DNA of 59,385 bases from a virus (Duplodnaviria; Caudoviricetes). Position numbers and translations under genes: made by a program. Position 1 is the first letter of the stretch, and every line of letters begins with the position of its first letter. Positions 25,344 through 28,260 of the stretch are shown piece after piece. Location of the stretch: positions 1-59,385 of IMG/VR virus record IMGVR_UViG_3300029309_000033. One strand, written 5' to 3'. The notes beneath the pieces were generated by a model. It ran no database searches. It saw only the letters and a list, made by a program, of their open reading frames with translations, and was not told where the DNA came from.

Positions 25344-27185
25344 TCATTTTATTTCTCCCCAGTTCTTACCAAACTCATAATCCACTTTACTTGGTATCTC
25401 TAACTCAACTGCGGATTCCATAATCTCTTTTATATGTTTTGCTTTTATATCACTTTCCACAGATATATCTAGTTCATCATGTACTTGTATATGTGCAACA
25501 ATGCCCTCCTTATATAACTCTAACATAGATTTTTTTGTCATATCTGCGGCTGATCCTTGTATTAATTTATTCAAAGCTTTGTAAGTATAAGCACGCCTGA
25601 TACCTGCTCCATGTTCCTGACGAGCTTGTTCAAAAGGTAACGCTTTGTGAACACCAAATCTACTAGGCTCCCACAAATGAAACCTGCATAATCTACCAAG
25701 TAAAGTTCGTATCTGCCCTCTTTGTTGTGCTCTGTTAGACACAGAGTTCATTAAAGTTTTAACAAACGGAACTCTTTCATGATAAACAGTAAATAGCTCT
25801 TCAGCTTTTTCTTTCGATACACCTAACTCTGCTTGTAGTTTTGCTTTACCCATGCCATAAAATAATCCAAGATTAATTGTTTTTGCTTGAGTTCTAGGTA
25901 TGTCAGCCATCTTCGCAACGATTGTGTGAAAGTCTGCATCGTCTTGTAAGTAAGAGTCCTTAACACTGAAGACGCTTGTATCTTGATCTAGGGATGCATA
26001 GTGAACTACTAATCTAGGTTCTTGTTGATTATAGTCAAAGCATCCCCACTCACAACCAGATTCAGGAATAAAGAGGGATCTGATCAATGGTCCTAAGTCT
26101 TTGTTGCGAGCAGGAATTTGTTGTAGATTTGGATTAGAGTAACTAAATCTACCAGTTACTGTGCCTCCTGTATCAGATCTAATCTGATTTATATCTGCAT
26201 GTATTCTACCTTTGTGTTCGTGTTTTATAATTGTATCTATGAATGTCGTATGTGCCTTGTTTATTTCTCTGGCTTTTGATATGCATTTTACTAAAGGATG
26301 TTTATGTGTAGACAAGAAATTTTTTGTAAAGGATGGTGCTTGTGTTTTTAAAGTTCTTTCATACGGTAAGTTTAGTTTATCAAACACTTTGGCTATCGAT
26401 CTTGCTGCCCATATTTGAGTATCTACTCCTGTCTCTGTTTTTACTTTTTGCAGGAGTTCTTTTTCTTCTGATGCTAATTGTTGCTTCATTGTGTGAGCTT
26501 TTTGAACATCTACTCTCACTCCTAAAAAACGCATGTCTACTAAACAAGGAAAAAGATCTGTTTCTAAATCAAAAATAGAATTTAAATCTTGATCCATTAT
26601 TTCTTTCTGCATTATCTTCCACAGTCCATACGTTAACTCTGCATCACGTTCAGCATAATTACCCACATACATCGCAGGTAGTTTCCACATGTCAGCTTTT
26701 GAATCTATGCCCCATTCTTTTGCAGCGTTGTTTAGTTCTGTTTCATTTTTACCTTGACTTAAATAGTCCCAACCAAGTGATCCAAGATCATATCTAAACC
26801 TATTTTCGTTTACGAGTGATGCTGCAATCATGGTATCAATTATAGTTCCGTTAATTGGTATGCCCATGGCCCTAATCCAACACACATCGTACATGGCGTT
26901 GTGAAATATTTTTGTAGAGGTAGTTTTACAAATGTCCGTAAACCATTGAATTACTTTACTTTTTTCTAGATTACCACCACCTTCATGATCGAATGGAAAG
27001 TATCCAGAATAACCCTCTGTCGCAACTGCAATGCCTACAACCTTACCTTTACCGATTACAGAACCAGACCCCATAGTTTTTAAGTCTGGGTCGTGTGTTT
27101 CTAAGTCAATTGCAATCTCTTCACAAAATCTTAAATCTGGAAACTCTTTGGGTTTAACCCACTCCGTCTGTGCCTTAAATATCAT
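25344..27185 (-). CDS. polA: Family A DNA polymerase with 3'-5' exonuclease (Leu762 type)
   Basis: IAIDLET, FHNAMYD, TGRFSYSNPNLQQIP, DYNQQEPR, RTQAKTINLGLFYG, IQGSAAD, QVHDEL. Confidence 0.95.
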   Translation of the reverse strand: MIFKAQTEWVKPKEFPDLRFCEEIAIDLETHDPDLKTMGSGSVIGKGKVVGIAVATEGYSGYFPFDHEGGGNLEKSKVIQWFTDICKTTSTKIFHNAMYDVCWIRAMGIPINGTIIDTMIAASLVNENRFRYDLGSLGWDYLSQGKNETELNNAAKEWGIDSKADMWKLPAMYVGNYAERDAELTYGLWKIMQKEIMDQDLNSIFDLETDLFPCLVDMRFLGVRVDVQKAHTMKQQLASEEKELLQKVKTETGVDTQIWAARSIAKVFDKLNLPYERTLKTQAPSFTKNFLSTHKHPLVKCISKAREINKAHTTFIDTIIKHEHKGRIHADINQIRSDTGGTVTGRFSYSNPNLQQIPARNKDLGPLIRSLFIPESGCEWGCFDYNQQEPRLVVHYASLDQDTSVFSVKDSYLQDDADFHTIVAKMADIPRTQAKTINLGLFYGMGKAKLQAELGVSKEKAEELFTVYHERVPFVKTLMNSVSNRAQQRGQIRTLLGRLCRFHLWEPSRFGVHKALPFEQARQEHGAGIRRAYTYKALNKLIQGSAADMTKKSMLELYKEGIVAHIQVHDELDISVESDIKAKHIKEIMESAVELEIPSKVDYEFGKNWGEIK

Positions 27186-28260
27186 TTACAACCTTTTTTA
27201 TAGCTAGTCCTATTTCTTTTGCGATTTGCGGGACGATAGCATTTCCCAATCCTTTAAGTCGGTGTACTCTGCCGGGTACCCCATTAGCCACTCTACCCAC
27301 ATTGGGTTCAACGCTCCACCAGCTGTTCCCGCTAGTCTGCTTTTCTTTTTCGCTGTTTCGTAATTCGTGTTCAGCCATGAATCTTTCCAATCTCTTGCTG
27401 TAGGTGTTGGCATCATGGCTATTCTCTCCTCTAATCTCGCCTTGTCTACTCCTCTCCTCTTGATGTTTTCCATGTTCTCCGACATGGCTTTCGATGCTCT
27501 TGGAGTTGGCCACATTTGTTTTGGTGGTGGATATATAACTTGCTCTCTCAGTGTCGAATGAGTGGTTCGACCCTTTCTGTTTTTTTGATATTGTTTCTTT
27601 AATTCCTTCTCGTTCCTTGGAGGCAAGCTGTCCATTGCGTTCGGCGTAAGCCACATTTGTTGAACTTGTTGATTCAGAGGTGGCACTTGTCCCCCTCCAG
27701 GATGTGGTTTTCTCGGCTTCGTTATGTTGTTTGAGTCGAATGTTGTCGGGGTTGACCATAGATTCTTCTCTGTTGGCAATAATCCAGACTCTTTCTCTCC
27801 GATGGGGAGCACCGACGCCTGCAGCTGGAATAATGAACGGTTGAACTTCGTAGCCTTCACTTTCCAAGTCAGTGCACACAGTTTCGAAGACCACGCCGTC
27901 TTGGATGTTAATAATATTTTTGACATTCTCCCCAATAACGAATTGGGGTTTGATCTCCCTAATGAGTCTAAACATTTCTGGCCAGAGATGTCGGTCGTCA
28001 CTCGTTCCTTTCTGTTTGCCTGCGACTGAAAATGGTTGACATGGGAAACCTCCGCAAATGACATCTGCCTCTCCTTCTTTTCCTTTGACATTTTTTATAT
28101 CCTCCTCGATTGGTATGTTGGGAAAGTTTTTTTGTAAAACTTTCTGACAGTATTTATCTTTCTCTACAAACTTCACTGTCTCAAAAAAGTTTGTTGAATC
28201 TAATCCTAACGTAAAACCACCTATGCCTGAAAATAAATCCAAAACTTTTAATTTTTTCAT
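27175..28260 (-). CDS. C5-cytosine DNA methyltransferase, alpha-type polypeptide
   Basis: DLFSGIGG (I), GGFPCQPFS (IV), ENV (VI), HRRERVW (VIII), LGNAIVPQ (X); no motif IX in this frame. Confidence 0.9.
   Translation of the reverse strand: MKKLKVLDLFSGIGGFTLGLDSTNFFETVKFVEKDKYCQKVLQKNFPNIPIEEDIKNVKGKEGEADVICGGFPCQPFSVAGKQKGTSDDRHLWPEMFRLIREIKPQFVIGENVKNIINIQDGVVFETVCTDLESEGYEVQPFIIPAAGVGAPHRRERVWIIANREESMVNPDNIRLKQHNEAEKTTSWRGTSATSESTSSTNVAYAERNGQLASKEREGIKETISKKQKGSNHSFDTERASYISTTKTNVANSKSIESHVGEHGKHQEERSRQGEIRGENSHDANTYSKRLERFMAEHELRNSEKEKQTSGNSWWSVEPNVGRVANGVPGRVHRLKGLGNAIVPQIAKEIGLAIKKVVNDI
27210..28091 (-). CDS. Nested alternate-frame ORF, putative methyltransferase beta polypeptide (start uncertain)
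   Basis: 293 open codons in AT-rich DNA; four xxTP repeats and motif-IX-like LNPMWVEWLMGYP. Confidence 0.7.
   Translation of the reverse strand: MSKEKKERQMSFAEVSHVNHFQSQANRKERVTTDISGQKCLDSLGRSNPNSLLGRMSKILLTSKTAWSSKLCALTWKVKATKFNRSLFQLQASVLPIGEKESGLLPTEKNLWSTPTTFDSNNITKPRKPHPGGGQVPPLNQQVQQMWLTPNAMDSLPPRNEKELKKQYQKNRKGRTTHSTLREQVIYPPPKQMWPTPRASKAMSENMENIKRRGVDKARLEERIAMMPTPTARDWKDSWLNTNYETAKKKSRLAGTAGGALNPMWVEWLMGYPAEYTDLKDWEMLSSRKSQKK

What the first reader, a model, noticed from the sequence alone, without database searches (positions are those of the whole stretch)
27175..28260. Methyltransferase split over two overlapping frames, with four repeats in the nested frame
Seen: the main frame has motifs I, IV, VI, VIII and X but a featureless variable region. 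The nested frame stays open for 293 codons and carries LWSTPTTFDS, MWLTPNAMDS, MWPTPRASKA, MMPTPTARDW and motif-IX-like LNPMWVEWLMGYP. Established: M.EcoHK31I takes motif IX from a beta polypeptide encoded in an alternative frame of the alpha gene. Inference: a heterodimeric phage enzyme whose beta chain holds several target-recognition modules, giving expandable multispecific anti-restriction methylation.
Basis: partly seen in the sequence, partly recalled or inferred. Interest (0 to 1): 0.7.

Follow-up and report, generated by a model that had tools for sequence, protein, structure and literature searches.

The report
Two-frame phage cytosine methyltransferase gene pair
One stretch of this marine phage's DNA is read in two overlapping frames, most likely giving the catalytic chain and the DNA-recognition chain of a single cytosine methyltransferase; that design has been shown by experiment for only one E. 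coli enzyme.

Summary
Window 27175-28260 (-) encodes a 361-aa C5 cytosine methyltransferase, here called alpha, with motifs I, IV, VI, VIII and X (Pfam PF00145, E 9e-58). A 293-codon ORF, here called beta (27210-28091, -), lies inside it in the +1 frame. Beta carries four W/M-x-T-P modules and motif IX.

This is not chance: 0 of 5000 synonymous-codon shuffles kept either frame open. The layout recurs in 64 of 80 virus loci retrieved by beta; 15 were cut by contig ends and 1 is a variant. It also recurs in 75 of 80 virus loci retrieved by alpha and in 73 of 80 bacterial or archaeal genome loci. No single-frame form was found in any set.

Codon-position variability shows selection on alpha at motifs I-VIII and X. 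It shows selection on beta at the modules and motif IX.

An SD-like site precedes the beta ATG in 50 of 65 loci. The alpha linker is predicted disordered. A complex model passed (score 0.91, best control 0.01), but likeness to solved single-chain enzymes may explain that.

The modules are swapped between otherwise near-identical relatives. Multispecificity is untested.

The closest known enzyme is M.EcoHK31I. No Pfam or NCBIfam model covers beta. This scan has noted the same layout before on other DNA (326 notes).

The parts
27175..28260 (-). alpha gene: 361-aa C5 cytosine methyltransferase, large (catalytic) domain plus motif X
   Evidence: ORF. PF00145 E 9.3e-58 over residues 4-356. TIGR00675 E 3e-51. 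phrog_363 E 6e-83. The model's N-terminal domain matches M.HhaI (Foldseek E 7.7e-17, 39-40% identity over 166-174 columns).
27210..28091 (-). beta gene: 293-aa nested ORF in the +1 frame, the proposed small (recognition) subunit
   Evidence: ORF. It has 1473 homologues at E<=0.001 and 9086 cluster representatives at 50% identity. phrog_1008 E 2.6e-22. No Pfam or NCBIfam family. No solved relative by sequence profile, 0 hits at E<=10.
28101..28107 (-). SD-like GAGGAGG, 9 nt upstream of the beta ATG (28089-28091), inside alpha codons
   Evidence: Sequence read. An SD-like tetramer lies at -16..-5 of the first beta ATG in 50 of 65 loci, against 231 of 1321 (17.5%) for other ATG triplets inside the alpha genes.
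28213..28233 (-). alpha motif I (AdoMet binding), residues 10-16
   Evidence: Translation. Residues S11, G12, I13, G14, G15 and F16 are nearly invariant in A2.
28036..28053 (-). alpha motif IV (GGFPCQ, catalytic Cys74), residues 70-75; overlaps beta residues 13-19
   Evidence: G71, P73, C74 and Q75 are invariant in 64 sequences.
27922..27930 (-). alpha motif VI (ENV), residues 111-113
   Evidence: E111 and N112 are invariant.
27778..27804 (-). alpha motif VIII (HRRERVWII), residues 153-161
   Evidence: H153, R155 and R157 are invariant. The strand before it (alpha 141-145) is modelled pairing with beta 88-90.
27307..27765 (-). alpha linker, residues 166-318: the off-frame reading of the beta modules, predicted disordered
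   Evidence: pLDDT is below 50 and no secondary structure is predicted over 186-339. Mean amino-acid entropy is 2.73 here in alpha against 1.98 in beta, and variability is highest at alpha codon position 1, which is beta position 3.
27810..27950 (-). beta residues 48-94: helix plus beta-hairpin, the proposed docking element on alpha; overlaps alpha motifs VI-VIII
   Evidence: Interface residues beta 48-92 in the complex model. These are the best-predicted part of beta alone (pLDDT 70-84). Synonymous variability of alpha falls here, with position-3 entropy 1.10 against 1.48 in the non-overlapped part.
27657..27761 (-). beta module 1 (residues 111-145, starts LWSTP)
   Evidence: It is 87-97% identical in P0005, P0018, P0010, P0019 and P0040, whose N-terminal parts are only 10-66% identical. 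It is absent from P0002, P0003 and P0004, whose flanks are 95-96% identical.
27516..27656 (-). beta module 2 (residues 146-192, starts MWLTP): the most conserved module type
   Evidence: T149 and P150 are nearly invariant in A3. Residues 144-152 touch alpha in the complex model.
27417..27515 (-). beta module 3 (residues 193-225, starts MWPTP)
27312..27416 (-). beta module 4 (residues 226-260, starts MMPTP)
27261..27311 (-). beta motif IX (residues 261-277); the same DNA encodes the conserved alpha segment just before motif X
   Evidence: G259, L261, E267, M270 and G271 are invariant in beta. G327, R331 and R334 are invariant in alpha on the same bases. Beta-frame entropy at positions 1/2/3 is 0.44/0.51/1.17. 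Contacts beta 258-272 with alpha 328-345.
27229..27246 (-). alpha motif X (GNAIVP), residues 339-344; overlaps the beta tail
   Evidence: G339, N340 and P344 are invariant. Helix 342-359 has pLDDT about 90. Alpha-frame entropy is 0.96/0.41/1.13.

Best explanation
This is a pair of same-strand overlapping genes that together make one two-chain DNA (cytosine-5) methyltransferase. Alpha (361 aa) is the catalytic large domain. It has motifs I-VIII, then a long disordered linker that is only the off-frame reading of beta, then the motif X helix that closes the AdoMet pocket. Beta (293 aa) starts at its own SD-like site and ATG inside alpha codons 52-57, in the +1 frame. It has an N-terminal helix-hairpin that docks on the motif VIII strand of alpha, four related W/M-x-T-P modules, and motif IX, which packs on motif X. 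So beta supplies the small, DNA-recognition domain that alpha lacks. The phage uses the enzyme, encoded in its replication module with no nuclease partner seen beside it, to methylate its own DNA, presumably against host restriction. Shown here: both frames, their conservation, the frame-specific selection, the SD-like site and the mosaic modules. Inferred: translation of beta, the heterodimer, the need for both chains, the role of the modules in sequence recognition and the anti-restriction role.
For: (1) Both frames are open against expectation: 0 of 5000 shuffles either way.

(2) Across 66 genes (the window plus 65 loci), the +1 frame over alpha motifs IV-VIII is stop-free in 66 of 66. Synonymous shuffles keep it open in a mean fraction of 0.003, so 0.23 loci would be expected. 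The alpha frame over the beta modules and motif IX is stop-free in 66 of 66, with 0.26 expected.

(3) Conservation of the layout was checked in three sets. Of 80 virus loci retrieved by beta, 64 have alpha N-terminus to motif X in one open frame and beta at +1. Fifteen are cut by contig ends, with the parts present at +1, and 1 (L069) is a variant. Of 80 virus loci retrieved by alpha alone, 75 show the layout, 3 are cut by contig ends and 2 are irregular. Of 80 loci from bacterial and archaeal genomes of many phyla, 73 show it, 3 are variants and 4 are irregular. No single-frame form was found in any set.

(4) Selection switches frame along the gene. Alpha position 3 is the most variable in the alpha-only part (1.48). 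Beta position 3 is the most variable in the modules (1.54) and at motif IX (1.17, against 0.44 and 0.51). The alpha pattern returns at motif X. Alpha's synonymous variability drops to 1.10 where the beta hairpin is encoded.

(5) An SD-like site precedes the beta ATG in 50 of 65 loci, against 17.5% of other ATG triplets.

(6) The alpha linker is predicted disordered, while the catalytic domain and the motif X helix have pLDDT of 90 or more.

(7) Complex model: score 0.91, best of 3 controls 0.01. That mark was reached by 58 of 80 solved complexes and 2 of 110 mismatched pairs. These counts hold only roughly, because my own alignments were used. The runs agree in at least 58% of contacts and the partner's pLDDT is at least 60. 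The contacts are the expected ones: IX with X, and the beta hairpin with the motif VIII strand.

(8) Precedent: in M.EcoHK31I the beta chain lies wholly in another frame of the alpha gene, and both chains are needed for activity (passages of PMC2836561; PMC3404938).
Against: There is no direct evidence that beta is translated or that the two chains bind. The complex pass may reflect likeness to solved single-chain C5 methyltransferases (halves of one fold), not binding of these copies. Beta alone folds poorly (mean pLDDT 59, pTM 0.25), and its language-model 'recognition' value is low (1626). The pattern of selection (alpha, then beta, then alpha) would also fit a single chain made by two frameshifts. 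The locus sets are the best 80 of 540, 579 and 308 confirmed matches, not the whole families. I did not measure how many more distant C5 methyltransferases lack the nested frame. I could not obtain the M.EcoHK31I sequence, so homology to it is untested.
Confidence: 0.8

Rival explanations
1. A single canonical chain is made by two programmed ribosomal frameshifts: +1 after motif VIII into the module frame, then -1 after motif IX back to the motif X frame.
For: The order of selected segments (alpha I-VIII, beta modules and IX, alpha X) equals the canonical order of a one-chain enzyme. Metagenomic ORFs exist that join the two frames: P0104, P0259, P0204, P0292, P0290, P0294 and P0296.
Against: This model needs neither the alpha frame open through the modules nor the beta frame open for about 108 codons upstream of them. 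Yet both are open in 66 of 66 genes, against 0.2-0.3 expected. It does not explain the SD-like site and ATG of beta. It also does not explain the lowered synonymous variability of alpha over the beta hairpin. The seven joined ORFs switch frame at seven different places and are mostly singletons, as sporadic indels or read errors would be. I saw no slippery heptamer at either junction by eye; I made no formal search.
Confidence: 0.04
2. Beta is a real protein but works apart from alpha, for example as a DNA-binding or regulatory protein. Alpha alone would then be the methyltransferase.
For: Beta has no recognised domain and no solved relative by sequence. Beta runs beyond the alpha stop in 5 of 65 loci.
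Against: Alpha lacks motif IX and any conserved or folded segment between motifs VIII and X. Beta carries a strongly conserved motif IX, modelled against motif X. In four variant loci the beta-type chain also carries motif X in frame, so it is part of the enzyme there. In M.EcoHK31I alpha alone is inactive (PMC2836561).
Confidence: 0.06
3. The four modules build one composite recognition domain (one specificity, or relaxed specificity). They would not be four independent target-recognition domains.
For: Nearly all modules fall in one related family: 1047 of 1195 by single linkage. One module type (window module 2) is nearly universal and is the only one placed confidently against alpha. The other modules have low pLDDT.
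Against: The count varies from 2 to 9 T-P dipeptides per beta. Beta lengths run from 191 to 501 aa. Modules are exchanged, added or lost between relatives whose flanks are 95-100% identical. That is hard to reconcile with one fixed fold. It resembles the tandem recognition domains of the multispecific Bacillus phage enzymes, a comparison I make from recall, not from any call.
Confidence: 0.4
4. The second open frame is a by-product of composition or of alpha-frame conservation and is not expressed.
For: Part of beta's N-terminal and tail conservation must follow from conserved alpha motifs on the same bases.
Against: Shuffles that keep the alpha protein and its codon usage never keep the frame open. 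In the module region and motif IX the beta frame is the one with the protein-like pattern of variability. There are thousands of homologues of beta.
Confidence: 0.02

Closest known systems
M.EcoHK31I (E. coli HK31, YGGCCR); Lee, Kam and Shaw 1995. I saw it only as described in passages of PMC2836561 and PMC3404938. The 1995 paper itself is not held.
   Same: It is a C5 methyltransferase of two chains. Alpha has motifs I-VIII and X. Beta has motif IX and is encoded wholly inside the alpha gene in another reading frame. The N-terminal part of beta is needed for association with alpha, and here the beta N-terminal hairpin is the modelled docking element.
   Different: Those papers place the predicted target-recognition domain in alpha and only motif IX in beta. 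Here the alpha segment between VIII and X is unconserved and predicted disordered, and the conserved modules lie in beta. Beta here carries an array of four exchangeable modules. M.EcoHK31I belongs to a restriction-modification system, whereas this gene is a phage gene with no nuclease seen beside it. Sequence homology to M.EcoHK31I could not be tested.
M.AquI (CYCGRG), as described in PMC3404938
   Same: It is a natural two-chain C5 methyltransferase split in the variable region.
   Different: In M.AquI the small chain carries motifs IX and X and, as I recall from no call, the two genes are consecutive. In the window motif X stays on alpha and the genes are nested. The variant loci L069, L118, L124 and L138 (motif X in the beta frame) have the M.AquI division of motifs but still overlap out of frame by about 360-430 nt.
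Multispecific C5 methyltransferases of Bacillus phages (SPR, phi3T, rho11s); recalled, not seen in any call
   Same: They have tandem short recognition units in the variable region, and unit number and type differ between related phages.
   Different: Those are single chains with experimentally assigned specificities per unit. Here the units are on a separate chain in a second frame, and their function is untested.
phrog_1008 ('DNA methyltransferase') and the nested second 'DNA-cytosine methyltransferase' CDS annotated in Paenibacillus larvae phages (e.g. Tadhana gp54/gp55)
   Same: Beta matches phrog_1008 (E 2.6e-22). Tadhana has the same +1 nested pair, and both CDS are deposited.
   Different: These are annotation only. 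The two Paenibacillus phage papers I searched by passages (PMC6070908; PMC5056774) do not discuss the nesting.

Membership tests
C5 DNA cytosine methyltransferase (Pfam PF00145) | Profile match above the curated cut-off | tested here: met
   Alpha scores 196.6 bits against a cut-off of 22. Beta has no match.
C5 DNA cytosine methyltransferase (Pfam PF00145) | Motifs I (FxGxG), IV (PCQ, catalytic Cys), VI (ENV), VIII (RxR) and X (GNxxxP) on one chain | tested here: met
   Translation. The residues are invariant in 64 sequences.
C5 DNA cytosine methyltransferase (Pfam PF00145) | Target-recognition region and motif IX between motifs VIII and X of the same chain | tested here: not met
   Alpha residues 166-318 are unconserved and predicted disordered. 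Motif IX is read only in the +1 frame.
M.EcoHK31I-type nested alpha/beta methyltransferase | Beta encoded entirely within the alpha gene in another reading frame | tested here: met
   27210-28091 lies inside 27175-28260, in the +1 frame. The pair is nested in 60 of 65 related loci.
M.EcoHK31I-type nested alpha/beta methyltransferase | Alpha has motifs I-VIII and X; beta has motif IX | tested here: met
M.EcoHK31I-type nested alpha/beta methyltransferase | Target-recognition domain on alpha, as described for M.EcoHK31I in PMC2836561 and PMC3404938 | tested here: not met
   The conserved, selected sequence between motifs VIII and X is in the beta frame. The alpha segment is predicted disordered.
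M.EcoHK31I-type nested alpha/beta methyltransferase | Both chains are made and both are required for methylation | not testable with these tools
   Only indirect support is available: the SD-like site and the complex model, score 0.91 against best control 0.01.
M.EcoHK31I-type nested alpha/beta methyltransferase | Sequence homology to M.EcoHK31I alpha and beta | not tested
   No M.EcoHK31I sequence was available. The 1995 paper is not held. There was no match in E. coli genomes by DNA and no E. coli hit among plasmids.
M.AquI-type split methyltransferase | Small chain carries motifs IX and X | tested here: not met
   In the window motif X is in the alpha frame. The feature is met in the variant loci L069, L118, L124 and L138.
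Multispecific phage C5 methyltransferases (recalled) | Several tandem recognition units, each giving its own target sequence | tested here: inconclusive
   Tandem, related, exchangeable units are present. The specificity of each unit cannot be tested here.

The most novel reading that the evidence does not exclude
Beta is a plug-in array of exchangeable target-recognition cassettes. Each W/M-x-T-P module would direct the one catalytic alpha chain to a different DNA sequence. Phages would then widen or change their protective methylation by recombining cassettes, every one of which must also read through without a stop in the alpha frame. On this view the gene pair arose by reciprocal overprinting. 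Its 51-nt segment that encodes motif IX in one frame and the conserved pre-motif-X segment in the other is an ancient true dual-coding element, later duplicated in the variants that carry motif X on beta.
Probability: 0.3. Interest if true: 0.8.

Novelty: new variant of a known kind. Interest (0 to 1): 0.65.

Why it matters
Long same-strand overlapping genes that are conserved across phyla are rare in prokaryotes and their viruses. Here about 880 nt are dual-coding, with invariant residues in both frames on the same bases. If the two-chain reading holds, a large class of genes annotated as single 'DNA cytosine methyltransferase' genes in phages, prophages and plasmids hides an unannotated second subunit. 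That subunit has no Pfam or NCBIfam model, and RefSeq plasmid records list only one gene over it. The published assignment of the recognition domain to alpha in the only studied example would then deserve a second look. The mosaic modules offer a natural system for learning how C5 methyltransferase specificity is built and exchanged. They could also serve as a modular scaffold for targeted methylation tools, the purpose for which M.EcoHK31I was used in PMC2836561.

Tried and rejected
Sequencing-error frameshift in the window: rejected, because both frames are complete and the same layout recurs in independent assemblies.

Conserved single-chain relatives: the search for longer proteins listed 44 proteins, of which 6 carry PF00145, and the near-length search showed 1 of the 120 listed. 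Read out, the seven switch frame at seven different points, so I treat them as sporadic indels or errors and not as a fused family.

Beta against solved structures by profile: 0 hits at E<=10. I did not fold-search the beta model because its confidence is low.

Module typing by single-linkage clustering merged 1047 of 1195 modules into one type. It therefore could not define cassette types, and I used region-wise identities instead.

Finding M.EcoHK31I or a relative in E. coli: blastn of the C72C1 gene against E. coli genomes gave no match. tblastn of its beta against plasmids gave 21 records, none from E. coli.

Literature on a family-wide nested layout: searches found none. PMC4559738 only names a C-5 methylase. 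Supplementary files were not opened and could hold relevant annotation tables.

Not attempted: sequencing-run and read-laying tools, because reads cannot tell which frame is translated.
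Full report
**What is there.**
The window is an IMG/VR virus record of 59,385 bases, estimated 99% complete. On the minus strand, 27175-28260 is a 361-codon ORF and 27210-28091 is a 293-codon ORF inside it, 169 nt downstream of its start, so in the +1 frame. I call them alpha and beta.
- Alpha matches the C5 cytosine methyltransferase family from end to end: PF00145 E 9.3e-58, TIGR00675 E 3e-51 and phrog_363 E 6e-83. It shows motifs I, IV, VI, VIII and X.
- Beta has no Pfam or NCBIfam match. 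It holds four W/M-x-T-P units with T-P at residues 114, 149, 196 and 229, and the motif IX segment at 261-277.
- The gene sits between an ORF similar to the DUF3310 gene of phage 023Pt_psg01 and one similar to the DNA polymerase A gene of pelagiphage HTVC027P. It is therefore in a replication module, and no nuclease gene was seen beside it.

**Not chance.**
- Shuffling synonymous codons of alpha, which keeps the protein and the codon usage, never left the +1 frame open for 293 codons or more in 5000 trials (mean 82, maximum 205).
- Shuffling the synonymous codons of beta never left the alpha frame open in 5000 trials.
- In the other 22 long open stretches of the window, the longest open run in an alternative same-strand frame is 70 codons.

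**Conservation of the layout.**
The beta protein has 1473 homologues at E<=0.001 in the word-indexed search, almost all without a Pfam domain. It also has 9086 cluster representatives at 50% identity, 2348 of them at E<=1e-10. I fetched three sets of loci.

| Set | Retrieved by | Kept / confirmed | Two-frame layout | Cut by contig end | Other |
|---|---|---|---|---|---|
| a. Virus contigs | beta | 80 of 540 | 64 | 15, with the parts present at +1 | 1 variant (L069) |
| b. Virus contigs | alpha alone, which removes selection on beta | 80 of 579 | 75 | 3, with the beta N-terminus at +1 | 2 irregular (L202, L240) |
| c. Bacterial and archaeal genome contigs | beta | 80 of 308 | 73 | 0 | 3 variants (L118, L124, L138) and 4 irregular (L115, L129, L134, L141) |

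- In the two-frame layout, alpha's N-terminal domain and motif X lie in one stop-free frame and beta (or its motif IX) is in the +1 frame.
- Set c comes from Bacillota, Bacteroidota, Pseudomonadota, Planctomycetota, Actinomycetota, Chlorobiota, Verrucomicrobiota, Nitrospirota, Patescibacteria and one archaeal MAG.
- No locus in any set has all motifs in a single frame.
- With phage C72C1 added, 60 of 65 complete pairs are fully nested. In 5 of them beta runs 4 to 424 nt past the alpha stop.
- Paenibacillus phage Tadhana has the same pair with both CDS deposited. In the record KM23-C739 the alpha frame is broken.
- Across the 66 genes, the +1 frame over alpha motifs IV-VIII is stop-free in 66 of 66, where shuffles predict 0.23 loci. 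The alpha frame over the beta modules and motif IX is stop-free in 66 of 66, where shuffles predict 0.26. The second count is partly built into my filter, but only one locus (L069) failed that filter for a reason other than a contig end.

**Which frame is under selection where (66 sequences).**

| Region | Guide frame | Entropy at codon positions 1/2/3 |
|---|---|---|
| Alpha-only part (residues 1-56) | alpha | 0.88/0.64/1.48 |
| Beta modules | beta | 1.15/1.10/1.54 |
| Motif IX | beta | 0.44/0.51/1.17 |
| Motif X | alpha | 0.96/0.41/1.13 |

- The alpha-only part has the usual pattern of a coding frame, with position 3 the most variable.
- In the modules the amino-acid entropy is 1.98 in beta against 2.73 in alpha.
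- Where beta's hairpin is encoded (alpha 111-165), alpha is still the dominant frame. Its position-3 entropy falls to 1.10 there, a sign of constraint from the second frame.

**Independent start.**
The beta ATG (28089-28091) is preceded by GAGGAGG at 28101-28107, made of alpha's Glu-Glu-Asp codons. An SD-like tetramer lies at -16..-5 of the first beta ATG in 50 of 65 loci. The same is true of only 231 of 1321 other ATG triplets inside the alpha genes. The alpha residues at the site differ between loci while the SD-like bases persist.

**Structure.**
- Alpha alone (AlphaFold2 with 64 sequences) has a confident catalytic domain and motif X helix (pLDDT 90 or more). It has no structure and pLDDT below 50 over 186-339. 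The folded part matches M.HhaI (Foldseek E 7.7e-17).
- Beta alone is poorly predicted (mean pLDDT 59, pTM 0.25). Its best part is at residues 40-100, a helix and a hairpin.
- The complex model passed its controls: score 0.91 in three runs against 0.01 for the best of 3 controls. That mark was reached by 58 of 80 solved complexes and 2 of 110 mismatched pairs. These counts hold only roughly, because my own alignments were used. The runs agree in at least 58% of contacts, and the partner's pLDDT is at least 60.
- The contacts pair beta 85-92 with the alpha strand 141-145 next to motif VIII. They also pair beta motif IX (258-272) with alpha 328-345 around motif X, and beta 144-152 (module 2) with alpha.
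- Because these are in effect two halves of a fold with many solved single-chain examples, the pass may show likeness and not binding.

**The modules.**
- T-P dipeptides per beta range from 2 to 9 in 66 sequences. Beta lengths range from 191 to 501 aa and alpha lengths from 275 to 540 aa.
- Nearly all modules are related to one another: 1047 of 1195 from 292 proteins fall in one single-linkage group.
- They are exchanged as blocks. P0001 is 95% identical to the window beta over residues 1-104, 96% and 94% over modules 3 and 4, and 100% over motif IX and the tail. It is only 36% and 23% identical over modules 1 and 2, where it has other modules.
- P0002, P0003 and P0004 lack module 1 entirely. 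Conversely, module 1 is 87-97% identical in five proteins whose N-terminal parts are 10-66% identical.
- This mosaic is what recombination of recognition cassettes would give. It does not show what the cassettes recognise.

**A second architecture and a dual-coded core.**
- In L069, L118, L124 and L138 the alpha-type ORF stops soon after motif VIII. The beta-type ORF still starts out of frame inside alpha and runs on through motif IX into motif X in its own frame. This is the M.AquI division of motifs.
- In these loci the DNA of motif IX, read in the old alpha frame, still gives a decayed copy of the segment that precedes motif X, now with stops in three of the four. An intact copy of that segment lies downstream in the beta frame. 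This fits a duplication of a segment that was once dual-coding.
- In the window, the same 51 nt (27261-27311) carry invariant residues of both chains.

**What is known.**
- PMC3404938 (passages) says the vast majority of characterised C5 methyltransferases are monomers, the exceptions being M.AquI and M.EcoHK31I.
- PMC2836561 (passages) describes M.EcoHK31I. Beta is encoded entirely in another frame of alpha. [quoted passage not shown] Alpha alone is inactive once beta's start codons are removed, and beta's N-terminal part is needed for association.
- The window fits this kind, except that the conserved recognition-type sequence is on beta and comes as an array.
- PHROGs has a family for beta (phrog_1008).
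- My searches found no paper that describes the layout as a widespread family. The 1995 paper could not be read, and supplements were closed.

**Rivals.**
- A single chain made by two frameshifts fits the order of selected segments. It explains neither the open frames beyond those segments, nor the internal start site, nor the scattered switch points of the seven joined ORFs.
- A beta that works apart from alpha is unlikely, because alpha lacks motif IX and variant betas carry motif X.
- A non-expressed shadow frame is contradicted.
- Whether the modules are separate recognition domains or parts of one remains open.

**Earlier notes of this scan.**
Look-ups after my own reading was formed show that the scan has met this layout before on other DNA: 326 notes in at least 310 genomes. 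Several follow-up reports reached the same reading and named the same closest enzyme. One note was later re-checked, with odds of 92/100 for what was seen and 56.5/100 for the two-chain reading. These are unchecked AI notes, and my scores rest on the calls above.

Noticed in passing
L069:2251-3535; L124:2811-4239; also L118 and L138: These loci show a second architecture. The alpha-type ORF ends just after motif VIII. The out-of-frame overlapping beta-type ORF carries the modules, motif IX and motif X in one frame. A decayed alpha-frame copy of the pre-motif-X segment still lies over motif IX.
   Followed up: partly
window 27261-27311 (-): The same 51 nt encode motif IX of beta and the conserved segment before motif X of alpha, with invariant residues in both frames.
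   Followed up: partly
proteins P0259, P0204, P0292, P0290 (no window coordinates): Some beta chains carry an inserted unit of 143-148 residues after a T-P start (module type F, 9 instances). It may be a folded extra domain, and the alpha frame still reads through it in at least P0204.
   Followed up: no
window 27175-28260: The G+C content of the gene is 42.7% against 35.8% for the whole window. This may come from avoiding stops in two frames or from horizontal acquisition.
   Followed up: no
L089, L090, L091 (one Roseovarius MAG chromosome): Three copies of the two-frame gene, with identical match statistics, lie at three places of one chromosome.
   Followed up: no
L001:2810-3738 (KT997847.1): In the deep-sea phage record KM23-C739 the alpha frame is broken around motifs IV-VI, and the pieces are annotated as two methyltransferase genes, one of which is the beta frame. 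This is either a pseudogene or a sequencing error.
   Followed up: no
plasmid hits H56-H65: In RefSeq plasmid records of Bacillus, Paenibacillus, Lacticaseibacillus and others, the beta-like frame lies under a single annotated 'DNA cytosine methyltransferase' gene. No second CDS is listed there.
   Followed up: no
window 27175-27185 and 28257-28260: Alpha overlaps the start of the downstream DNA polymerase ORF by 11 nt and the end of the upstream 68-aa ORF by 4 nt. This suggests one translationally coupled minus-strand operon.
   Followed up: no
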